Sequence record: OL539459.1
Direction: 5' to 3' (one strand)
Length of the DNA: 51,759 nucleotides
Origin: Escherichia phage vB_EcoD_Fulano1
Shown: positions 572-20,917 of the stretch, piece after piece
Layout of the letters: every line of letters starts with the position of its first letter
Numbering within the stretch: position 1 is the first letter of the stretch
Made by a program: the position numbers and the translations under genes
Notes under the pieces: generated by a model
Database searches by the model: none
What the model saw: only the letters and a program-made list of their open reading frames with translations
Told to the model about the DNA's origin: nothing

Positions 572-2139
572 TGCTGATTTGGGAAGACTTAACAGCGGCG
601 CAAAAACGCGCCGTTAAGGAAATGAGCGAATATTCATTCGAAAAGATGATCCGCATTTGGTTTCAATTATTGCAAGGTCAGAAATTCTTAGGAAACTGGC
701 ATTTTAGCTACCTATGCAGCGAAGTTGAAAAAATCATCAAAGGAGAGTCACAGAATGTAATTTTCAACATAACGCCAGGCAGCGGTAAAACAGAGATATT
801 CTCGATCCATATGTCACCTTATGCGTCATTGAAAAGTAAGAAGGTGAGAAATCTCAATTTGTCGTTTAGTGATGGCCTTGTCCAGCAGAATAGCAACCGC
901 ATCAAAGAGATTATTGGTTCTCCAGAATGGCAGGAGCTATGGCCTGGAAAGCTGGCAAAGGCGAGCGCAAAGGATTTGATTGTAACCGATGGCGGCAAGG
1001 TTAAATTGCAAGTTAACTCGCGTTCTATCGGTGGTCAGGTTACTGGTCTGCGTGGAGGCTACATGGACGATGGCTTTACTGGTATGCTGGTTCTTGATGA
1101 TCCAGACAAGCCGGATGACATGCTTTCTAAGGTGAAGCGCGAAGCCGGACACATGCGCCTAAAGAACACGGTTCGATCGCGTCGAATGAAGGACACCACG
1201 CCAATTGTGATGGTTCAGCAACGCCTACACGTCAATGATTCAACATGGTTCATGACAAACGGAGGTATGGGCGGCATCCAGTTTAAGGTGGTTAGTATTC
1301 CGGCGCTCGTTACTAAGGAATATCGCGAAACTCTTCCTGATTGGTTAAGGCATGAGTTTGATCGCGATGTTTTGTCCAGCAAGCCAGTAATGATTGATGG
1401 AGTTGCTCATTATTCATTCTGGCCTGCTAAGGAAAGCGCGGAGGAATTACTTGCACTTCGCAATGCTGATCCGTACACGTTCGCTAGTCAGTATCAGCAA
1501 CAGCCTGTTGCGCTTGGCGGTAACGTGTTTAAAACAGAGTGGTTTCAGTATTACGGCAGCAGCGAGAAATGCACGCTACCAAAACCGGATCGCTTTGAAT
1601 ATACATTTATCACGGTTGATACCGCACAGAAAACAGGGGAGCTTAACGACTACTCCGTGATCTGTTATTGGGGGATGTATAAAGATCGCGTTTACTTCAT
1701 TGATGGTGTTCGCGGAAAATGGGAAGCACCAGACCTTGAGACTAATTTTGTTGCGTTCGTTAATCAGTGCTGGAAGCGCAATAAAGAATGCGGAACGTTG
1801 CGAAGGATTCATGTTGAAGATAAATCGTCTGGCACTGGTTTGATTCAGAGTGCAGCGAAAAAAATAATGATCAAGATCAATCCCGTTCAGCGTGATAAAG
1901 ACAAGGTTACTCGCGCAATGGACGCAGCGCCAGTAATGCGCGCCGGACGCGTAGCACTTCCAGAATCGCATCATATGCTGGCTGAGATACTTGCGGAGGT
2001 TGCGGCTTTTGCTTATGATGATTCAGCGCCACACGATGATATTGTGGATACTATAATTGACGCTGTAAACATTGAGCTTAACCTTGCTGATGATGCCGTT
2101 GGTCGAATGAAAAAATTGGCAGGTTTGCGGAACAAATAG
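571..2139 (+). CDS. terminase large subunit
   Basis: 522 aa; P-loop PGSGKT near N-terminus; acidic C-terminal half (DDSAPHDDIVDT) consistent with nuclease domain; first large gene of structural module. Confidence 0.8.
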   Translation: MLIWEDLTAAQKRAVKEMSEYSFEKMIRIWFQLLQGQKFLGNWHFSYLCSEVEKIIKGESQNVIFNITPGSGKTEIFSIHMSPYASLKSKKVRNLNLSFSDGLVQQNSNRIKEIIGSPEWQELWPGKLAKASAKDLIVTDGGKVKLQVNSRSIGGQVTGLRGGYMDDGFTGMLVLDDPDKPDDMLSKVKREAGHMRLKNTVRSRRMKDTTPIVMVQQRLHVNDSTWFMTNGGMGGIQFKVVSIPALVTKEYRETLPDWLRHEFDRDVLSSKPVMIDGVAHYSFWPAKESAEELLALRNADPYTFASQYQQQPVALGGNVFKTEWFQYYGSSEKCTLPKPDRFEYTFITVDTAQKTGELNDYSVICYWGMYKDRVYFIDGVRGKWEAPDLETNFVAFVNQCWKRNKECGTLRRIHVEDKSSGTGLIQSAAKKIMIKINPVQRDKDKVTRAMDAAPVMRAGRVALPESHHMLAEILAEVAAFAYDDSAPHDDIVDTIIDAVNIELNLADDAVGRMKKLAGLRNK

Positions 2140-2153
2140 CACGAATCGACAAA
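2136..2153 (+). promoter_or_regulatory. recurrent element, variant ATAGCACGAATCGACAAA
   Basis: overlaps TerL stop TAG; TATATAAT follows. Confidence 0.3.
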
Positions 2154-2168
2154 CCAATATATAATCAA

Positions 2169-2193
2169 AGGCTGGTGAATCCAGCCTTTTTTA
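2169..2193 (+). terminator. intrinsic terminator
   Basis: stem AGGCTGG/CCAGCCT, loop TGAAT, T-run. Confidence 0.6.
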
Positions 2194-2207
2194 TTGGAGG
2201 AAAGATA

Positions 2208-3488
2208 ATGAGTAAATCACGAATCGTTAAGGCTGATGGCTATAACGAGATCTTTAAAGGCGAGAATTGCAAATCGCGAGTAGAGCAACCATTCTACATG
2301 CAATCAATGCCATACAAGACACTTGCTGACTTTTACGAAAAAGACGGCCTGGCAAAAAGGGTTATTGACGTAGTACCAGAGGAAATGGTTTCCCCTGGCT
2401 TCACGGTTGACGGCGTGGCAGACGAGGCAGCATTCCGTTCTTTGTGGGATGAGAAGCGATTGAATGCAAAAATTATTGATGCGCTTTGCTGGTCGCGTTT
2501 GTTTGGCGGATCTGCAATCATTGCTCTTGTTCAGGATGGGCGGGCGCTCAAATCACCTGTAAAGCCTGGTGCCACGCTGGAAGACGTGCGCGTTTACGAT
2601 CGTTATCAGATTCGCGTTGAAGCGCGAGAAACAAATCCCCGCAAGGTTCGCTATGGTGAGCCAGTGCTTTACACTGTAACGCCAGGAGGAGACTTGCCGG
2701 AATACCAGGTACACTACACGCGCGTTTGCATTATCGACGGTGAGCGGATACCTAACGCAAAGCGACGCAGCAATGACGGCTGGGGTGAGTCAGTTCTTAA
2801 CAAGCGGCTTGTTGAGGCTATTGTTGATTATAACTATTGTGAAACATTAGCTACGCAATTATTGCGAAGAAAACAACAGGCAGTATGGAAGGCCAAAGGT
2901 CTTGCTGACTTGTGCGATGATGAGGAGGGTGTTAGCGCGGCACGCTTGAGACTTGCGCAGGTTGACGACGAGGGCGGCGTTGGCAAGGCCATTGGTATTG
3001 ATGCTGAGGATGAGGAATATGATGTTCTTAACTCTGACATTAGCGGCGTTGATTCTTTTCTGGAAAAGAAAATGGATCGCATCGTTTCCCTTTCAGGTAT
3101 TCATGAAATCATCCTGAAAAATAAAAACGTTGGCGGAGTTAGCGCAAGCCAAAACACGGCGCTTGAAACATTCTATAAACTTATTGAGCGAAAACGCGTC
3201 GAGGATTACAAGCCTATCCTTGAATTTCTATTGCCGTTCATCATTAGTGAGCAGGAATGGAGCATTGAGTTTTCACCTTTGAGCGTACCTAGCGATAAAG
3301 ATCAGGCTGAAATTCTGAATAAGAATATCGACTCAATCAGCAAGGCTATTGATGGTCAGTTCCTTGATGTTGAAGAAGCGCGCGACACGTTGCGAGCAAT
3401 CGCACCAAGCGTTAAACTAAAGGACACCAATAAAATCAAGCTGCCGGAGCCAACTGAGCCGGAGCCAGGCACACAGGGGAATGAGTAA
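2208..3488 (+). CDS. portal protein
   Basis: ORF track 2175..3488 trimmed to ATG 2208 behind GGAGG (2196-2200); ~430 aa gene directly after terminase, acidic C-terminus; position-based call. Confidence 0.65.
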   Translation: MSKSRIVKADGYNEIFKGENCKSRVEQPFYMQSMPYKTLADFYEKDGLAKRVIDVVPEEMVSPGFTVDGVADEAAFRSLWDEKRLNAKIIDALCWSRLFGGSAIIALVQDGRALKSPVKPGATLEDVRVYDRYQIRVEARETNPRKVRYGEPVLYTVTPGGDLPEYQVHYTRVCIIDGERIPNAKRRSNDGWGESVLNKRLVEAIVDYNYCETLATQLLRRKQQAVWKAKGLADLCDDEEGVSAARLRLAQVDDEGGVGKAIGIDAEDEEYDVLNSDISGVDSFLEKKMDRIVSLSGIHEIILKNKNVGGVSASQNTALETFYKLIERKRVEDYKPILEFLLPFIISEQEWSIEFSPLSVPSDKDQAEILNKNIDSISKAIDGQFLDVEEARDTLRAIAPSVKLKDTNKIKLPEPTEPEPGTQGNE

Positions 3489-4252
3489 TGAAAGTGAAGG
3501 GCGTCGTTAAACAATGGCGCTTTCCTGAAGCAAGCGAGCGGCAATTTAGCCGCTCAATTCAGGAGGCAATTAGAGAACTTGTAGTTCTCATGCGCAAGCG
3601 AACAAAAGCGATGAAGTTTGATGCAACAGATAATGAGATCAACAGCGCAGAAGATGAAATTAACAGCCTGGCAACTGACCTTATAGCTGGCATTGTTTCA
3701 ACTCTTCCCGCAATCGCGTTGACAATTTATAAATTCAATGCGAAGCAGTTTATCAATGTTGCCAAGTCAACTGGCGGAAAGGATAATACGGCGGTAATTG
3801 TTTTGATCGCGGTTGGCGCTAACGCTAACGAGGACTGGTATCAGACGCTATACGGTCAATGGCACGGGCTTACAGAATCATCGCTAAGGAAGTTATTCAC
3901 AAACATTGTTTCTGATTGGTCAACAAACATTCGAAATGCAAACTTTCGCGGAAGCAATGATAAACAGGTTAATGATCTTGCAGAAAAGAGATTTGCTGTT
4001 TATAGCTCTTGGGGTAAAACGAGATCAGAAAACATTATCGGCGCGTGGAATAGTCGCCTGATGCGCCAGCGCCTTTATGATGCTAAGGTGACTCATTATT
4101 TCTGGCATGGAATGTTAGATGATAGAGAGCGATTGCAGCATGTGTTATGGGAAGGTAAAAGAATAGCGCTTGATGCAATTCATGATTTCCCTGGTGAGCC
4201 GTGGGGTTGCCGTTGCTGGGCGATTCCAGATTGGAATAATAAAGGAGAGTAA
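3488..4252 (+). CDS. head morphogenesis / minor capsid protein (SPP1 gp7 / Mu F-like)
   Basis: 254 aa, start overlaps portal stop (TAATG); position after portal. Confidence 0.5.
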   Translation: MKVKGVVKQWRFPEASERQFSRSIQEAIRELVVLMRKRTKAMKFDATDNEINSAEDEINSLATDLIAGIVSTLPAIALTIYKFNAKQFINVAKSTGGKDNTAVIVLIAVGANANEDWYQTLYGQWHGLTESSLRKLFTNIVSDWSTNIRNANFRGSNDKQVNDLAEKRFAVYSSWGKTRSENIIGAWNSRLMRQRLYDAKVTHYFWHGMLDDRERLQHVLWEGKRIALDAIHDFPGEPWGCRCWAIPDWNNKGE

Positions 4253-16089: not shown

Positions 16090-19000
16090 ATGGCTGAAAA
16101 TATGATAACTGGCAGTAAGGGTGGATCATCAAAACCTTATGTGCCGAAAGAGATGGAAGATAACCTGATCTCAATCAACAAAATCAAAATCCTTCTTGCC
16201 GTTTCCGATGGTGAGTGCGATCCAGATTTCACGCTTCGCGATCTGTATCTCGATGATGTTCCGGTAATTGCAGATGATGGAACTGTTAACTATCAGGGTG
16301 TGAAAGCTGAATTTCGACCTGGAACGCAGACGCAAGATTACATCCAGGGGTTTACTGACACATCAAGCGAAGTGACGCTGGCGCGTGACATTACGACAAC
16401 AAATCCTTATGTAATTTCCGTAACCAACAAAACATTATCGGCTATCAGAATCAAAATGCTAATGCCAACAGGCATTAAGCAAGAGGATAACGGCGATCTT
16501 GTCGGCGTTAAGGTTACTTATGCTGTTGATATGGCTGTTGACGGAGACTCTTACAAAGAAGTATTGCGAGACACTATCGAAGGTAAAACGCGATCAGGTT
16601 ACGACAGAAGCAGAAGGATTGACCTTCCGGAATTTAATGATCGCGTATTACTTAGGGTTAGAAGGGTTACGGCAGACAGCACATCCTCTCGTGTTACTGA
16701 TCTGATTAAACTACAAAGTTACGCTGAGGTTATTGATGCAAAATTCCGTTATCCTCTGACTGGTCTTGTATACGTTGAATTTGACAGTGAGTTGTTCCCT
16801 AACCAGATCCCTAACATTTCAATCAAGAAGAAATGGAAGTTGATTAATGTTCCTAGCAATTACGATCCGGTAATGCGAGAGTATCACGGTTCATGGGATG
16901 GTACGTTCAAGAAAGCGTGGTCGAACAATCCGGCGTGGGTACTTTATGACATTATCACAAACCAGCGATACGGATTAGATCAGCGAGAGCTTGGTGTACA
17001 GGTTGATAAATGGAGTCTTTACGAAGCGGCGCAATACTGCGATCAGAAAGTTCCTGACGGGAAAGGCGGTACAGAGCCGCGTTATCTATGCGACGTTGTG
17101 ATTCAAAGCCAGATTGAGGCTTATCAGCTTATTCGTGATATTTGCTCAATCTTCAGAGGCATGAGCTTTTGGAATGGAGAGAGCTTGTCAATCGTCATTG
17201 ATAAGCCGCGCGATCCGTCGTACATCTTCACAAATGACAATGTTGTTGATGGTGATTTTCAGTACACAACAGCAAGTGAAAAGAGCATGTACACGCAGTG
17301 CAACGTGACGTTCGATGACGAACAAAACATGTATCAACAGGACGTAGAGGGTGTATTCGACACAGAGGCCGCATTGCGATTTGGATACAATCCTACAAGC
17401 ATAACCGCGATCGGATGTACACGCAGGAGTGAGGCTAATCGGCGCGGTCGATGGATACTAAAAACCAACTTGCGCAGCACTACGGTAAACTTTGCTACTG
17501 GACTGGAAGGCATGATCCCATCAATAGGTGATGTGATTGCTATTGCTGACAACTTTCACAGCAGCAACCTTAAGTTAAACCTATCAGGGCGAGTGATGGA
17601 AGTTTCCGGCTTGCAGGTATTCGTTCCGTTTAAGATTGATGCTAGACCAGGTGATTTCATTATCATCAACAAGCCGGACGGAAAGCCAGTTAAGCGCACA
17701 ATCTCAAAAGTAAGCGGTGACGGAAAAACCATTGAGCTAAACATAGGGTTTGGATTTGAAGTTAAACCGGACACGGTTTTTGCAATCGACCGCACTGATA
17801 TTGCATTGCAGCAATACGTTGTAACGAGTATCGGCAAAGGTGATGATGATGATGAATTTACATACTCCATCACGGCTGTTGAATATGACCCGAACAAATA
17901 CGACGAGATTGATTATGGAGTAAATATTGACGACAGGCCAACTTCAATTGTCCAGCCTGACACAATGGCAGCGCCTGAAAATGTGCAAATATCCTCATAC
18001 TCGCGAATTGTCCAGGGTGCAAGCGTTGAAACAATGGTTGTGTCGTGGGATAAAGTACCTTACGCATCGCTGTATGAAATGCAATGGCGAAAAGGTGATG
18101 GCAACTGGCTGAATACACCACAGACCGCAAACAAAGAAATTGAGGTTGAAGGTATTTATTCAGGAAACTACCAGGTAAGGGTTAGATCTGTTTCTGCTTC
18201 AGGTTCGACTTCTCCGTGGTCCAGAATTGTAACAGCCTCACTGACAGGTAAGGTAGGAGAGCCAGGCGCTCCAGTTAACTTAACCGCATCCGACAATGAG
18301 GTGTTTGGCATTCGTGTTAAGTGGGGGATGCCAGAAGGGAGCGGAGACACGGCATACATTGAACTTCATCAGTCGCCAGATGGAACAGCGGAAAACTCAA
18401 GCCTGTTAACGCTGATCCCATATCCACAATATGAATACTGGCACGGTACGCTTCCGGCTGGTCATGTTGTATGGTATCGGATCAGGAGCGTAGACAAGAT
18501 CGGCAACGTTTCCGGTTGGACTGATTTTGTTAGAGGTATGGCTTCAGATGATGTTGAGGCTGTTTTAGGAGATATTCTTGATAAGATTTTTGATACTGAA
18601 GCAGGTCAGGATCTGAAAGAGAACGCCATTGACAGTGCAAACAAGATAAAGGACCAGGCGCAAGCAATCATCCAGAATGCTCTTGCTAATGATGCTGATA
18701 TTAAGTGGACGCGAGTACAAAACGGAAAGAGAAAGGCTGAATATGGTCACGCTCTTGAGCTTATCGCCACAGAGACTGAGGCGCGAGTTACGCAGATTGA
18801 AGAATTGAGGGCGTCAATCGACGAGGATATTGTTTCAAGCATAAAGACAGTGCAGGAGGCTATCGCCACAGAATCTGAAACGCGAGCAACTCAAATAAAT
18901 GCTTTGGATTCAAAATTCACAACTGAAATTGACGGTGTAAAACGCGATACAGCCGCAAGCATTAATCAAGTGAATCAAACCATTGCCAATGAGTCAGAAG

Positions 19001-19668
19001 CGCGCGCGCAGGCCGTTAACGCGCTTGATGCGAAGTTCACAAAGGAGATCGAAGATTTAAACGGAGTCATTAAGACTGAGGTTGAGGCTAACATCTCTGA
19101 AGTGAAACAGGCTATCGCTAACGAGACAGAGGCAAGGGTACAGGCTGACCAGGCGTTAACAGCTAAGTTTGGAGACGTTGAATCTGCATTAGCTCAAAAA
19201 CTTGATTCATGGGCTGGCGTATCGTCTGTTGGTGCTAAATACTCAATGAAACTTGGGTTAACTTACAACGGGCAGAAGTACAGCGCAGGAATGGTAATGC
19301 AGCTTTCGCAGAGTTCATCCGGCCTTATCTCGCAAATCTTGTTTGACGCGAACAGGTTCGCGATTATGACTAGCTCGACTGGCGGAACGTTTACTTTGCC
19401 TTTTGTTGTTGAAAACAACCAGGTTTTCATTAATAGCCTGTTAGTTAAAAACGGTTCAATCACAAATGCTATGATCGGTAATTATATTCAGTCGAATAAC
19501 TTTGTTGCCAATCAGCAGGGTTGGAGGCTGGATAAAAGCGGAAGATTTGAGAACTACGGTTCTACATCTGGAGAAGGGGCCATGAAGTTGACAAATGAAA
19601 CGATAAGTGTACGAGACGCAAACGGGCGCTTGCGTGTTCAGATTGGTAGGCTTACTGGTACGTGGTAA
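16090..19668 (+). CDS. host specificity protein J-like central tail fibre
   Basis: 1192 aa, lambda J-like position; C-terminal periodic repeats (ETEARxxQ...ALxAKF). Confidence 0.85.
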   Translation: MAENMITGSKGGSSKPYVPKEMEDNLISINKIKILLAVSDGECDPDFTLRDLYLDDVPVIADDGTVNYQGVKAEFRPGTQTQDYIQGFTDTSSEVTLARDITTTNPYVISVTNKTLSAIRIKMLMPTGIKQEDNGDLVGVKVTYAVDMAVDGDSYKEVLRDTIEGKTRSGYDRSRRIDLPEFNDRVLLRVRRVTADSTSSRVTDLIKLQSYAEVIDAKFRYPLTGLVYVEFDSELFPNQIPNISIKKKWKLINVPSNYDPVMREYHGSWDGTFKKAWSNNPAWVLYDIITNQRYGLDQRELGVQVDKWSLYEAAQYCDQKVPDGKGGTEPRYLCDVVIQSQIEAYQLIRDICSIFRGMSFWNGESLSIVIDKPRDPSYIFTNDNVVDGDFQYTTASEKSMYTQCNVTFDDEQNMYQQDVEGVFDTEAALRFGYNPTSITAIGCTRRSEANRRGRWILKTNLRSTTVNFATGLEGMIPSIGDVIAIADNFHSSNLKLNLSGRVMEVSGLQVFVPFKIDARPGDFIIINKPDGKPVKRTISKVSGDGKTIELNIGFGFEVKPDTVFAIDRTDIALQQYVVTSIGKGDDDDEFTYSITAVEYDPNKYDEIDYGVNIDDRPTSIVQPDTMAAPENVQISSYSRIVQGASVETMVVSWDKVPYASLYEMQWRKGDGNWLNTPQTANKEIEVEGIYSGNYQVRVRSVSASGSTSPWSRIVTASLTGKVGEPGAPVNLTASDNEVFGIRVKWGMPEGSGDTAYIELHQSPDGTAENSSLLTLIPYPQYEYWHGTLPAGHVVWYRIRSVDKIGNVSGWTDFVRGMASDDVEAVLGDILDKIFDTEAGQDLKENAIDSANKIKDQAQAIIQNALANDADIKWTRVQNGKRKAEYGHALELIATETEARVTQIEELRASIDEDIVSSIKTVQEAIATESETRATQINALDSKFTTEIDGVKRDTAASINQVNQTIANESEARAQAVNALDAKFTKEIEDLNGVIKTEVEANISEVKQAIANETEARVQADQALTAKFGDVESALAQKLDSWAGVSSVGAKYSMKLGLTYNGQKYSAGMVMQLSQSSSGLISQILFDANRFAIMTSSTGGTFTLPFVVENNQVFINSLLVKNGSITNAMIGNYIQSNNFVANQQGWRLDKSGRFENYGSTSGEGAMKLTNETISVRDANGRLRVQIGRLTGTW

Positions 19669-19675
19669 AATCAAA

Positions 19676-19700
19676 GCGGGGCATTTGCCCCGCATTTATG
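19676..19700 (+). terminator. terminator-like hairpin after J gene
   Basis: stem GCGGGG/CCCCGC, weak ATTTAT tract. Confidence 0.4.
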
Positions 19701-19711
19701 GAGGTTTAATA

Positions 19712-20017
19712 ATGGCTGAATATGGTGTTTCAACGTGGGATGCTAACGGGAAGTATAACAACTACGGAATCAAGCCAGTTTCCGTTGTTGGTGTCATTAG
19801 CCTTGCGGCTGGTCAGACAAGCGGATCGTGGAGCTTTAGCATTCCAAGTGGTTTTAAGGTTGGGTATGTTGTTTCGCTTGATGAGGGTGCTAGAGGGGTT
19901 GGAAGGGAAATAGTAGCATCTGGAAACACAATAAGAATCAGTCCTACATCTTCAGTTGGTGCAAATAGATATTCTTCTTCAAAGTGTGAGTTAGTTGTTT
20001 TTCTTGAGAGGGCTTAA
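19712..20017 (+). CDS. hypothetical tail-associated protein
   Basis: trimmed to ATG 19712 behind GGAGG; begins MAEYG like next gene. Confidence 0.35.
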   Translation: MAEYGVSTWDANGKYNNYGIKPVSVVGVISLAAGQTSGSWSFSIPSGFKVGYVVSLDEGARGVGREIVASGNTIRISPTSSVGANRYSSSKCELVVFLERA

Positions 20018-20018
20018 A

Positions 20019-20657
20019 ATGGCTGAATATGGAGCAATGTTATCTTTATCAAATGGGAATCCATTTATCACACCAAAATCAACGCCATTTTGCTTATATG
20101 GCAAGTACACTTATTCATCTTCTGGCACTTCTGCCTATCATAGCGCAAGCGCAAATATACCATTGAATCAATCTTATCCATGTATGGCATTTATAAAAAC
20201 AACAAACACACAGCAGCCAACTGCATTAATAGCTTACAGGAATGGTGGCAACATTTATGTAAACGGAGGCAATCCATACGGGCAATCATTTACAATGACT
20301 GTTTATATATTTGCCATATTCCCTCAAACTCTACCCAAATATGGTATGGCTATATGGGATGCAAGCGGCAAGTTGGTTTTAACTAATGAAAGCAGGGTGC
20401 TAACAGATCTTGTTACAATTGGTACTCCTGGTTCTTCAGGTGGAACGAATATAGATCAAACGTTATCTGGTTCTTATGCCGTTTGCCCGTCAAGGCTTGG
20501 TGCGGTTGTAGGCATGGGGGCTTCTGATATATACACATCATGCAGGTATAATGGTTCAAGCACAAGGATAGGTGCAGCAAGGACAACGCCAGGAACAGGA
20601 TCTATAACAAATAACGGAAATTCAATAATTGCAATAAAGACTGATATTTACGACTAA
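20019..20657 (+). CDS. hypothetical Ser/Thr/Gly-rich protein (fibre-like)
   Basis: trimmed to ATG 20019; begins MAEYG and contains internal copy of the WDAxGK module. Confidence 0.35.
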   Translation: MAEYGAMLSLSNGNPFITPKSTPFCLYGKYTYSSSGTSAYHSASANIPLNQSYPCMAFIKTTNTQQPTALIAYRNGGNIYVNGGNPYGQSFTMTVYIFAIFPQTLPKYGMAIWDASGKLVLTNESRVLTDLVTIGTPGSSGGTNIDQTLSGSYAVCPSRLGAVVGMGASDIYTSCRYNGSSTRIGAARTTPGTGSITNNGNSIIAIKTDIYD

Positions 20658-20660
20658 TGA

Positions 20661-20690
20661 AAAAGGGGCTTTCGCCCCTTTATTTTTATT
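20661..20690. terminator. bidirectional intrinsic terminator
   Basis: A-run, stem GGGGC/GCCCC, T-run; between convergent genes. Confidence 0.7.
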
Positions 20691-20917
20691 TACAGACTGC
20701 AATCAGCGTTTTTAAAGTTATCAATACTTACCCACTGAAAATTAAACGGATAGCCAGCCTTAACAAGAGTGCGGTCGCCAACTCGTTTCACTCCGAAAAT
20801 AGCAACTGAATACTGCATTCCGCTATTTTCATAAATAGCCGTGCATTCACGTTTAGGCATATTTGCGCACCCAGTCAGGGTTACGGCTGCAATCAAAACG
20901 GCGATTAACTTTTTCAT
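20690..20917 (-). CDS. cor: lipoprotein, Cor-like superinfection exclusion candidate
   Basis: 75 aa, signal peptide MKKLIAVLIAAVTLTGC with lipobox, RBS AAGGAG; located after tail fibre genes as for cor in T1/phi80-type phages. Confidence 0.5.
   Translation of the reverse strand: MKKLIAVLIAAVTLTGCANMPKRECTAIYENSGMQYSVAIFGVKRVGDRTLVKAGYPFNFQWVSIDNFKNADCSL

What the first reader, a model, noticed from the sequence alone, without database searches (positions are those of the whole stretch)
19712..20657. Two post-J genes share an MAEYG...WDAxGK module, repeated internally in the second
19712..20017 begins MAEYGVSTWDANGKYNNYGIKPVS. 20019..20657 begins MAEYGAMLS and contains KYGMAIWDASGKLVLTNES about 115 residues in. 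The second protein is Ser/Thr/Gly/Asn-rich. This looks like modular shuffling typical of receptor-binding or fibre-accessory proteins downstream of J.
Basis: seen in the sequence. Interest (0 to 1): 0.4.

Follow-up and report, generated by a model that had tools for sequence, protein, structure and literature searches.

The report
FhuA receptor-binding gene pair after J
The two small genes after the tail-tip gene J are the already known, but never tested, receptor-recognition pair of T1-like phages that use FhuA, and their shared opening motif is a real, ancient beta-hairpin that starts each of three roughly 100-residue modules.

Summary
P1 (19712..20017, 101 aa) and P2 (20019..20657, 212 aa) both start MAEYG. 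The P1 start recurs at P2 residues 105-118. No shuffle out of 5000 reaches the observed score, and the motif is conserved across about 100 homologues of each protein.

Profile comparison shows more than a motif. P1 is a paralogue of the N-terminal half of P2 (80 columns, E 2e-5). The C-terminal half of P2 keeps only the hairpin.

Both proteins are predicted with high confidence as all-beta. [quoted passage not shown]

The locus is the known J / small protein / large protein / Cor cassette of T1, phi80 and relatives. It tracks FhuA use, and a 96%-identical locus sits in the FhuA-dependent phage JLBYU41. The literature calls it a receptor-binding locus without direct proof.

New here:
- The FhuA-type large protein is homologous end to end with that of a second cassette type, probably BtuB-specific, and with one in short-tailed Stx phages.
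- Every fibre followed by such a pair ends in a similar hairpin.

The idea that the hairpins dock the pair onto the J tip is inferred, not shown. Verdict: a known system with a modest new architectural insight.

The parts
16090..19668 (+). Central tail fibre / tip attachment protein J (1192 aa)
   Evidence: Pfam FNIII-A_GpJ, Phage-tail_3 and Phage_Tail_Tip (residues 1034-1166, E 5e-41); phrog_31 'central tail fiber J'.
19519..19665 (+). Last 49 residues of J: GWRLDKSGRFENYG...ISVRDANGRLRVQIGRLTGTW, two hairpin-like segments at the fibre tip
   Evidence: This ending is present in every J-type fibre that is followed by a small + large pair (FhuA type, haarsle type, types C and D, phi80, the Stx phage tail fibre). 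It is absent from J proteins with a fused C-terminal receptor domain. It diverges together with the cassette in the haarsle swap. The P1/P2 motif HMMs do not retrieve it, so its likeness to their hairpins is by eye only.
19676..19693 (.). GC-rich stem-loop (7 G-C pairs, loop of 4) between J and P1
   Evidence: The T-run qualifies it as a terminator for the minus strand only; on the plus strand it is followed by ATTTAT. Its role is unknown.
19712..20017 (+). P1, small subunit (101 aa): N-terminal hairpin module plus a six-strand beta-sandwich
   Evidence: phrog_557, E 4e-30. 105 homologues. AF2 mean pLDDT 89.3, strands at 24-31, 38-41, 48-55, 65-70, 73-78 and 92-100. No signal peptide or membrane segment.
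19712..19783 (+). N-terminal module of P1 (residues 1-24, MAEYGVSTWDANGKYNNYGIKPVS)
   Evidence: Most conserved part of the family: mean majority fraction 0.82 against 0.73 for the rest. G5, N16, N17, Y18, G19, P22 and V23 are invariant; W9, D10 and G13 are nearly so. Low pLDDT (63-76) in the monomer model.
20019..20657 (+). P2, large subunit (212 aa): two tandem hairpin-plus-beta-sandwich modules
   Evidence: phrog_425, E 5e-69. 114 homologues. AF2 mean pLDDT 92.2, pTM 0.88. Its start codon lies 1 nt after the P1 stop.
20019..20099 (+). N-terminal module of P2 (residues 1-27, MAEYGAMLSLSNGNPFITPKSTPFCLY)
   Evidence: Conserved at 0.78, against 0.53 for residues 28-95. Predicted as a hairpin (strands 7-9 and 15-17) with low pLDDT of 63-68. 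It aligns with P1 1-24 inside the 80-column P1 / P2 N-half alignment.
20331..20390 (+). Internal hairpin of P2 (residues 105-124, LPKYGMAIWDASGKLVLTNE), at the start of the second module
   Evidence: Lies in the most conserved stretch of the family (residues 96-135, 0.84). Predicted strands 111-113 and 119-122. Matches P1 3-14 in profile comparison, E 2-3e-5. Aligns with HGIAFYNAHGEMVYHG of the haarsle-type large protein and EYGIAMYNPDGEMIYHG of Stx phage gp60.
20662..20691 (+). Intrinsic-terminator-like hairpin plus T-run after P2, lying between the convergent P2 and cor genes
20690..20917 (-). Cor superinfection-exclusion lipoprotein (75 aa, lipobox LTGC)
   Evidence: phrog_1119, E 4e-29; Pfam LPAM_1 just under its curated cut-off (19.6 bits against 20, E 0.0012). 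Cor is the FhuA-blocking lipoprotein of T1 and phi80 (PMC9586334, PMC13164509).

Best explanation
P1 and P2 are the exchangeable receptor-recognition subunits of a T1-like siphovirus (Hanrivervirus) that uses the outer-membrane transporter FhuA.

They are late tail genes read in the same direction as J. P2 starts one base after the P1 stop, so the two are probably made in similar amounts. Both are soluble, all-beta, cytoplasmically made proteins. Together they supply three modules of about 100 residues, each being a beta-hairpin (strand, D-x-x-G turn, strand) followed by a beta-sandwich. P1 is one module. P2 is two in tandem, and its first module is a paralogue of P1.

Proposed mechanism (inferred):
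- The pair assembles non-covalently on the C-terminal tip of the trimeric J fibre, which itself ends in hairpin-like segments.
- The conserved hairpin segments form the attachment and inter-module surfaces.
- The more variable sandwich loops, chiefly of P2, contact the extracellular loops of FhuA.

The convergent cor gene makes a lipoprotein that blocks FhuA in infected cells. The J tip, P1, P2 and Cor move between phages as one cassette.

Shown here: the repeat and its conservation; P1 / P2 N-half paralogy; soluble all-beta predictions; linkage with J and Cor; the cassette swap; homology with a second cassette type.

Inferred: presence in the virion, binding to FhuA, and the docking role of the hairpins.
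For: Family and context: phrog_557, phrog_425 and Cor lie directly after J. P1 and P2 homologues co-occur in 344 and 349 phage records with almost the same organism breakdown, including T1, phi80 and HK/mEp lambdoid phages.

Receptor link: the locus is 96% identical to that of FhuA-dependent JLBYU41 (PMC10373560). The locus type tracks the receptor in BASEL (PMC8594841) and in 10.64898/2026.04.02.716166. T1, HK022, N15, ES18 and phi80 all carry it and all use FhuA (PMC13164509).

Late-operon linkage: in phi80 the gp22 start is 1 nt after the J stop and gp22/gp23 overlap as TAATG, while cor has its own annotated promoter.

Not membrane proteins: the highest 19-residue Kyte-Doolittle mean is about 1.0 and neither N-terminus looks like a signal peptide. 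AF2 models are all-beta with pLDDT 89 and 92.

Module architecture:
- P1 vs P2 1-104: 80 columns, score 32.3, E 2.2e-5, against a column-shuffle null of 11.4 +/- 2.3.
- Sandwich bodies alone: score 21.5, E 1.3e-3, null maximum 19.3.
- P1 3-14 vs P2 107-118: E 2-3e-5.
- The strand pattern of P2 repeats at an offset of 102-104 residues.

Hairpin segments are the best-conserved parts of both families, and the two N-terminal ones have low confidence in the monomer models, as expected of partner-dependent elements.

Co-inheritance with the J tip: phage haarsle has 93-94% identical flanks but a different cassette, and a J ending whose DNA identity drops to 79%. The phi80 J is 41% identical overall but visibly better conserved over its last ~130 residues. 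A short-tailed Stx phage has a different fibre with the same kind of ending, followed by a homologous pair. J proteins with fused receptor domains lack both the ending and the pair.

Parallel case: in the LptD-type protein from the same genomic position, conserved residues map to the base that holds the N-terminus and hairpins, and that protein was shown by cryo-EM to bind its receptor (PMC13035648, PMC12685063).
Against: No experiment places P1 or P2 in a virion or on FhuA. The literature says 'pending experimental validation' (PMC8594841) or relies on AlphaFold3 models (the 2026 preprint).

The cryo-EM map of the T1 tail tip does not resolve the distal part of J, and none of the passages I read mention these proteins (PMC11945409).

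The P1/P2 motif HMMs do not retrieve the J terminal hairpins, so that likeness is by eye.

The two halves of P2 show no sequence similarity above the null. The secondary-structure periodicity is only about 2.4 SD.

I could not superpose the models because coordinates are not exposed, and I could not run a complex prediction.

In the haarsle-type cassette the pair is on the opposite strand to J and overlaps the lipoprotein gene. That arrangement fits a tail operon less obviously.
Confidence: 0.68

Rival explanations
1. Only P2 is the virion receptor-binding protein. P1 is a dedicated assembly factor or chaperone, comparable in role to lambda Tfa or T4 gp38/gp57A, that helps P2 fold or attach and is absent from the finished particle, or present only as an adaptor with no receptor contact.
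For: P1 is small and always sits directly upstream of P2. The 2026 preprint speaks of one bona fide RBP per locus plus 'one or two accessory proteins'. The LptD-type locus manages with a single protein and no P1 equivalent. The small proteins diverge much faster between cassette types than the large ones: the P1 HMM finds haarsle-type small proteins at E 0.003 or worse, whereas the P2 HMM finds the large ones at E 2e-9.
Against: P1 is a paralogue of the first module of P2, with the same hairpin-plus-sandwich layout. That suggests a structural building block rather than a chaperone. It has no similarity to the known fibre-assembly families (no Pfam hit). Its N-terminal module is as strongly conserved as those of P2.
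Confidence: 0.2
2. P1 and P2 are envelope-associated proteins that act with Cor in superinfection exclusion and are not virion parts. The KanT1 paper assumes this from the PHROG labels and the linkage with cor.
For: [quoted passage not shown] Constant linkage with cor (PMC13164509). In the haarsle-type cassette the lipoprotein gene and the pair overlap on one strand.
Against: No signal peptide, lipobox or membrane segment; all-beta soluble predictions. In phi80 the pair is translationally coupled to J, while cor is a separate moron with its own promoter. In this window cor is convergent to the pair, with a terminator between them. The pair changes together with the J ending. Stx phages carry the pair after their tail fibre gene with lom, not cor, next to it.
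Confidence: 0.06
3. The shared motif is a chance or compositional resemblance between two Gly/Ser/Asn-rich proteins and carries no meaning.
For: The pairwise match is only 14 residues long. P1-family HMM searches of 1.84 billion representatives do not retrieve P2-like proteins.
Against: No shuffle out of 5000 reaches the observed score. Reciprocal best non-self hits within the window. Profile-profile E 2e-5 at both sites, with an 80-column extension. The motif columns are among the most conserved in both families and are kept in the homologous haarsle-type and Stx-phage proteins.
Confidence: 0.02

Closest known systems
The gene pair that follows J in phage T1 (a 229-aa P2 homologue plus a small P1-like gene) and phi80 gp22/gp23, with cor: the FhuA-associated cassette downstream of J (Wietzorrek et al. 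2006 as cited in PMC13164509; Maffei et al. 2021, PMC8594841)
   Same: Same families (phrog_557, phrog_425, Cor), same order after J, same sizes (100 and 224 aa in phi80). Identity to phi80 gp22 is 71%; identity of P2 to the T1 homologue is 55%. Proteins 98-100% identical to those of this window are already in GenBank phages such as herni, SFP17 and G29-2.
   Different: Nothing essential. Here cor is convergent rather than co-directional, and a GC-rich stem-loop separates J from P1, whereas phi80 has a 1-nt junction.
Phage T5 pb5 with the Llp lipoprotein (PMC9586334)
   Same: Works alike in outline: a separate receptor-binding protein held non-covalently at the end of a trimeric central fibre binds FhuA, and an adjacent small lipoprotein blocks FhuA from the periplasm.
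   Different: No sequence relationship: the search of all PDB chains, which include pb5, found nothing for P2. pb5 is one protein of about 640 residues; here there are two small proteins. T1 and phi80 need TonB for irreversible adsorption and T5 does not (textbook knowledge, not tested here).
LptD-specific receptor-binding protein of Rtp, Oekolampad and OzMSK (Rtp44 type) with the Rtp45 lipoprotein (PMC12685063, PMC13035648)
   Same: Same genomic position after J with an adjacent exclusion lipoprotein. It is built of two lectin-like beta-sandwiches with a conserved base holding the N-terminus and hairpins. The same weak structural neighbours turn up (3WMP for P2, 4MTM for P1). Its start, MPQGIFIDLNDGRP, looks like the hairpin motif.
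   Different: A single protein of about 320 aa with no small partner. No significant sequence or profile match, and no Foldseek match to its solved structure among the top 50 hits. The motif likeness is not statistically supported.
Haarsle/Warwickvirus-type pair (92 + 204 aa), probably BtuB-specific, and the gp59/gp60 pair of short-tailed Stx phages
   Same: The large proteins are homologous to P2 end to end (E 2e-9 and 8e-10 in a 2674-ORF set), with the internal hairpin in the same columns. The small proteins start MAEYGYAIYDDRGRE and MEYGFAIYNRNN. The preceding fibre ends in the same kind of hairpin.
   Different: About 20-25% identity only. The small proteins are barely detectable with the P1 profile (E 0.003 to above 1). 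In T1-like phages the cassette is inverted relative to J. The receptor assignments are inferred from the literature and were not checked phage by phage.

Membership tests
FhuA-associated post-J cassette (T1 / phi80 gp22-gp23-cor type) | Small protein belongs to the gp22 family (phrog_557) and large protein to the gp23 family (phrog_425) | tested here: met
   E 3.8e-30 and 4.8e-69, full-length matches. tblastn finds phi80 gp22 at 71% identity and the T1 homologue of P2 at 55%.
FhuA-associated post-J cassette (T1 / phi80 gp22-gp23-cor type) | Position directly downstream of the gpJ homologue, in the order small then large, next to a Cor lipoprotein gene | tested here: met
   J 16090..19668, P1 19712..20017, P2 20019..20657, cor 20690..20917 on the minus strand.
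FhuA-associated post-J cassette (T1 / phi80 gp22-gp23-cor type) | The phage depends on FhuA as terminal receptor | not testable with these tools
   Indirect only. The locus is 96.1% identical to that of JLBYU41, reported as FhuA-dependent (PMC10373560). The Hanrivervirus Bas07 is listed as using FhuA.
Virion receptor-binding protein (functional class) | Present in the particle at the tail tip and binds the receptor directly | not testable with these tools
   I found no proteomic or structural data. The distal part of J is unresolved in the T1 map.
Outer-membrane / membrane-associated protein (the database labels) | Signal peptide, lipobox, transmembrane helix or outer-membrane beta-barrel | tested here: not met
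   N-termini MAEYGVSTWD... and MAEYGAMLSL... have no basic-then-hydrophobic start. Maximum 19-residue hydropathy is 1.05 and 0.93. The models are compact beta-sandwiches of 101 and 212 aa.
Lambda-type side tail fibre / tail fibre assembly proteins (Stf, Tfa) | Match to the corresponding Pfam families | tested here: not met
   No Pfam family at E up to 1 for either protein.
T5 pb5 family | Sequence or fold similarity to pb5 | tested here: not met
   No hit for P2 against all PDB sequences at E up to 10, and no relevant hit for P1. pb5 is not among the top 50 Foldseek matches.
LptD-type RBP (Rtp44 / Oekolampad RBP) | Sequence or fold similarity to the solved protein | tested here: not met
   No PDB sequence hit. 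Not among the top 50 Foldseek hits. The P2 HMM against the LptD-type proteins gives E 0.025 at best. The hairpin PSSM is not significant, p 0.57.

The most novel reading that the evidence does not exclude
The hairpin-first modules are a general plug-in system. On this reading, exchangeable receptor-binding pairs start each module with the same strand / D-x-x-G turn / strand hairpin. Examples are the FhuA type here, the haarsle type (probably BtuB), types C and D, and the pair in short-tailed Stx phages. They dock onto any J-type fibre that ends in the matching ...V-x-D-x-N-G-x-L-R-V-x-x-G-R-L segment. The geometry could be a head-to-tail chain (J tip, P1, P2 first module, P2 second module) or a three-module cap on the threefold fibre. 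That would make the families that the literature calls unrelated into one diverged superfamily. It would also give a simple rule for re-targeting phages: move the last ~30 codons of J together with the pair and the lipoprotein gene.
Probability: 0.3. Interest if true: 0.6.

Novelty: already known. Interest (0 to 1): 0.38.

Why it matters
How T1-like and phi80-like phages recognise FhuA is still not known at the protein level, even though T1 is a classic model and a notorious laboratory contaminant. The two genes here are the leading candidates.

Published annotation is contradictory. The genes are variously called 'outer membrane protein', 'membrane associated protein', 'tail fiber protein', part of the Cor exclusion system, or a receptor-binding protein.

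Three results here narrow the question and give concrete residues to mutate:
- The proteins are soluble.
- They are paralogous modules.
- Their best-conserved parts are three hairpins that travel with the J ending.

The homology between the FhuA-type large protein and those of a second cassette type and of Stx phages suggests that fewer independent inventions of receptor-binding proteins are needed than currently assumed. It also helps define the unit to swap when engineering receptor specificity.

Tried and rejected
- Pfam and PDB sequence searches gave nothing for either protein.
- Foldseek against the PDB and BFVD gave no significant fold match. The best hits were the Sf6 tailspike (E 0.11) and AP22 gp53 for P1, and the PCSK9 C-terminal domain (E 0.013, TM 0.25) for P2. 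The BFVD search of P1 did not return P2-like proteins, so it could not serve as an indirect test of fold identity.
- The P1-family profile against 1.84 billion representatives found only about 100-aa relatives, plus large repeat proteins matching the sandwich region. It found no P2-like proteins.
- A hairpin PSSM built with each cassette type left out in turn was significant for the internal site of the FhuA-type and type D large proteins (p 0.0005 or lower). It was not significant for the haarsle type (p 0.27), type C (p 0.32) or the LptD type (p 0.57). I therefore dropped the idea that the 320-aa LptD protein is a fusion of three modules. The OzMSK paper describes it as two sandwiches.
- The two halves of P2 are not similar in sequence above the null.
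- The motif HMMs do not retrieve the J terminal hairpins.
- I looked for virion proteomics of relatives. The Sfin-1 data set concerns an LptD-type phage and is of low specificity, and the mEp study concerns other phages.
- Wietzorrek et al. 2006 is not held.
Full report
**What is in the sequence**

The region holds four genes:

| Gene | Coordinates | Strand | Size |
|---|---|---|---|
| J-type central tail fibre | 16090..19668 | + | 1192 aa |
| P1 | 19712..20017 | + | 101 aa |
| P2 | 20019..20657 | + | 212 aa |
| Small lipoprotein | 20690..20917 | - | 75 aa |

. J carries the Pfam domains FNIII-A_GpJ, Phage-tail_3 and Phage_Tail_Tip. The lipoprotein is Cor (phrog_1119, E 4e-29). P1 and P2 have no Pfam family but belong to phrog_557 and phrog_425.

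P1 has a GGAGG site 6 nt before its ATG. P2 starts one base after the P1 stop codon. A terminator-like hairpin follows P2, and a GC-rich stem-loop lies between J and P1.

The window is a T1-like phage of the Hanrivervirus group. The 2.2-kb locus is 94-97% identical to several such phages, including JLBYU41. The window length, 51,759 bp, equals that listed for vB_EcoD_Fulano1 in PMC10373560. That identification is only an inference.

**Check of the observation**

- P1 residues 1-14 match P2 105-118 (7 of 14 identical, 12 of 14 positive, E 6e-4). They match P2 1-14 more weakly (E 0.14).
- Of all 14-residue stretches in P2, these two are the best matches to the P1 start (scores 49 and 31; the next is 20). 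No shuffle out of 5000 reaches 49.
- Within the window, profile searches started from either family find the other as the best non-self hit.
- P2 is 41% Ser+Thr+Gly+Asn, the highest value among the larger ORFs of the window.
- At DNA level the copies are only 75-84% alike over 25-36 nt, so the repeat is old and not a recent transfer.

**The repeat is more than a motif**

I aligned 93 P1 homologues and 99 P2 homologues and compared the profiles.

| Comparison | Columns | Score | E | Column-shuffle null |
|---|---|---|---|---|
| P1 vs P2 1-104 | 80 | 32.3 | 2.2e-5 | 11.4 +/- 2.3, max 17 |
| Same with the first 20 residues removed | 62 | 21.5 | 1.3e-3 | max 19.3 |
| P1 vs P2 105-212 | 12 (hairpin only) | 32.7 | 2.3e-5 | not run |
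| P2 1-104 vs P2 105-212 | 22 | 12.9 | 0.15 | 11.4 +/- 2.2 (not above null) |

. P1 is therefore a paralogue of the first half of P2. The second half of P2 shares only the hairpin with P1.

The AlphaFold2 models are confident: pLDDT 89.3 for P1, and pLDDT 92.2 with pTM 0.88 for P2. Both are all-beta.

- P1 has a low-confidence N-terminal stretch of 20 residues, then six strands.
- P2 has a low-confidence hairpin (strands 7-9 and 15-17), then six strands in almost the same positions as in P1.
- P2 then has a second hairpin (strands 111-113 and 119-122) followed by eight strands.

The strand pattern of P2 correlates best with itself at an offset of 102-104 residues (r 0.41, about 2.4 SD). This is suggestive only. 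I could not superpose the models.

The hairpin segments are the best-conserved parts of both families. The mean majority fractions are:

| Protein | Segment | Conservation |
|---|---|---|
| P2 | 1-27 | 0.78 |
| P2 | 28-95 | 0.53 |
| P2 | 96-135 | 0.84 |
| P2 | 136-212 | 0.67 |
| P1 | 1-25 | 0.82 |
| P1 | 26-101 | 0.73 |

.

**Not membrane proteins**

[quoted passage not shown] Neither protein has a signal peptide, a lipobox or a hydrophobic stretch; the maximum 19-residue hydropathy is about 1.0. The predicted folds are small soluble sandwiches. The labels are therefore unsupported.

No significant fold match exists in the PDB or BFVD. The weak neighbours (AP22 gp53, 4MTM, for P1; the lectin 3WMP for P2) are the same ones reported for the LptD-type receptor-binding protein of phage OzMSK (PMC13035648).

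**What the locus is**

P1 and P2 homologues occur together in about 345 phage records. These include T1, phi80 (gp22 and gp23), HK and mEp lambdoid phages, Dhillonvirus and T1-like Klebsiella phages. They also occur in many enterobacterial prophages.

The literature holds three views.

- Maffei et al. 2021 matched allelic variants of the locus downstream of gpJ to each terminal receptor. They called them bona fide receptor-binding loci 'pending experimental validation' (PMC8594841).
- A 2026 preprint confirms the correlation in 64 T1-like phages. It speaks of four unrelated protein families for FhuA, BtuB, LptD and YncD plus one or two accessory proteins, and supports this with AlphaFold3 models.
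- The KanT1 paper found no structural or HHpred hits for the two proteins and assumed a role in Cor-mediated exclusion. It also noted that T1, HK022, N15, ES18 and phi80 all carry the cassette and all use FhuA (PMC13164509).

The paper on JLBYU41 treats J itself as the receptor-binding protein. Only the LptD-type protein has been shown by cryo-EM to bind its receptor (PMC12685063).

**Evidence that separates the views**

- In phi80 the gp22 start lies one base after the J stop, and gp22 and gp23 overlap (TAATG). The record annotates cor with its own promoter, transcription start and terminator, i.e. as a moron.
- In this window cor is convergent to P2.
- Phage haarsle has flanks 93-94% identical to the window but a different cassette. 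The replaced stretch runs from the end of J (19685) to codon 18 of cor (20863). The last part of J itself drops to 79% DNA identity, with changes concentrated in the final 25 residues.
- The phi80 J is 41% identical overall but visibly better conserved over its last ~130 residues, which end ...ISVKDGSNVLRVQVGRLTGVF.

These points tie the pair to J and not to cor.

**Survey of 75 related loci**

I fetched 75 loci using the N-terminal 800 residues of J as the query.

- Every J ending in a segment like ISVRDANGRLRVQIGRL is followed by a small protein (92-123 aa) and a large protein (204-265 aa). Both start with a similar hairpin motif.
- J proteins with long fused C-terminal domains (1258-1480 aa) lack both that ending and the pair.
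- The P2 profile finds the haarsle-type large protein end to end (E 2e-9 in a set of 2674 ORFs). The internal hairpin falls in the same columns, HGIAFYNAHGEMVYHG.
- The small proteins are only marginally detectable (E 0.003 at best).
- Types C and D and the LptD type share the motif by eye. Statistical support exists only for the internal site of type D (p 0.0005) and not for the others.

I take the haarsle type to be BtuB-specific for three reasons. It occurs in Warwickvirus phages, several of which are listed as using BtuB. JLBYU01 carries it and does not depend on FhuA alone. And the KanT1 paper reports BtuB phages with Cor and the large protein but no P1-type protein. This assignment remains an inference.

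**Beyond siphoviruses**

The haarsle-type large protein has 44%-identical homologues in short-tailed Stx-converting phages. In Shigella phage 75/02 Stx, a 422-aa tail fibre protein ends ...IEVYDQNGRLAVRIGRLR. It is followed by a 92-aa protein (MEYGFAIYNRNN...), a 205-aa protein (MYGLSIMKPDGSVW..., internal EYGIAMYNPDGEMIYHG) and then lom. The P2 profile finds the 205-aa protein at E 8e-10. The association of this fibre ending with the pair therefore holds in a different tail type.

**Mechanism proposed**

The best reading is that P1 and P2 are soluble tail-tip subunits that sit on the J ending and carry the FhuA specificity. Their conserved hairpins would serve attachment and inter-module packing. 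The variable sandwich loops would contact the receptor. Cor protects infected cells.

The docking role of the hairpins rests on three indirect observations:

- their conservation;
- their low confidence in the monomer models;
- their co-inheritance with the J ending.

The analogous finding for the LptD-type protein, whose conserved base holds the N-terminus, points the same way.

The docking role is not shown. The likeness between the J ending and the P1/P2 hairpins is not statistically supported. Whether P1 is part of the particle or only an assembly helper cannot be decided here.

**Verdict**

The genes are a known, widespread cassette, and proteins 98-100% identical to them are already in databases.

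What this analysis adds:

- P1 is a paralogue of the N-terminal half of P2.
- The pair forms a three-hairpin architecture.
- The membrane labels are rejected.
- The FhuA-type large protein is homologous with those of a second cassette type and of Stx phages.
- The pair is linked to a particular fibre ending.

Interest is moderate.

Noticed in passing
window 19676..19693: A perfect 7-bp G-C stem (GCGGGGC ATTT GCCCCGC) sits between the J stop and the P1 ribosome-binding site. phi80 has a 1-nt J/gp22 junction instead. It could lower or stabilise expression of P1 and P2 relative to J. By the T-run it scores as a terminator only for the minus strand.
   Followed up: partly
window 19701..19725 and 20008..20032: The translation start regions of P1 and P2 are 84% identical over 25 nt (GAGG...ATGGCTGAATATGG). 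The two genes therefore share the ribosome-binding site context and the first five codons.
   Followed up: partly
window 19685..20863 versus L003 (phage haarsle) 8440..9563: A natural cassette swap between phages whose flanks are 93-94% identical. The left boundary lies in the last codons of J. The right boundary lies inside the signal-peptide codons of the lipoprotein gene, so both lipoproteins keep the same MKKLIAV...LTGC start.
   Followed up: yes
L003 and L067, about 30..1200 nt after the J stop, minus strand: In the haarsle-type cassette the order on the minus strand is lipoprotein, small protein, large protein, with overlapping stop and start codons. The whole cassette is inverted relative to J and the exclusion gene appears co-translated with the pair.
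   Followed up: partly
L077 (Shigella phage 75/02 Stx) 1934..4118: Short-tailed Stx-converting phages carry a homologous small + large pair right after a 422-aa tail fibre protein that ends in the same hairpin as J, followed by lom. Whether this pair recognises their receptor is unknown to me. From memory these phages are reported to use BamA/YaeT, which I did not check.
   Followed up: partly
search hits MG065640, MG065641, MG065679, MG065687 and others: Eighteen records named 'Campylobacter phage', with host given as Campylobacter jejuni, are 95-97% identical to this E. coli T1-like locus. They look like T1-like contaminants or mislabelled hosts.
   Followed up: no
protein P0103 (139 aa, from a 1.37-Mb bacterial contig): This ORF reads from the J ending (...VKDGSNVLRVQVGRLTG) through CSD straight into a P1 start (MAYGIQTWDASGK...) and then breaks off. 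It is most likely a decayed prophage in which the J stop was lost.
   Followed up: no
window 18890..19109: J here is 51 residues longer than in close relatives (1192 against 1141 aa). The difference lies in the repetitive coiled-coil part, with repeats of the type IANE(S/T)EAR..Q..ALDAKF.
   Followed up: no
proteins P0250, P0260, P0269, P0286 and others: The P1 profile matches, in 4-19 stretches each, very large repeat proteins whose units read ...SGSWTWNIPSDETLGTDYTVRVLS.... The P1 sandwich may therefore be a common Ig-like repeat type. The summed E-values of such repeat proteins are not reliable evidence of homology.
   Followed up: partly
window 20657..20809 (+): A 50-aa ORF (MKKGLSPLYFYLQ...) overlaps the terminator and runs antisense to cor. 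The same ORF recurs in relatives (L001), but it is most likely not a gene.
   Followed up: no
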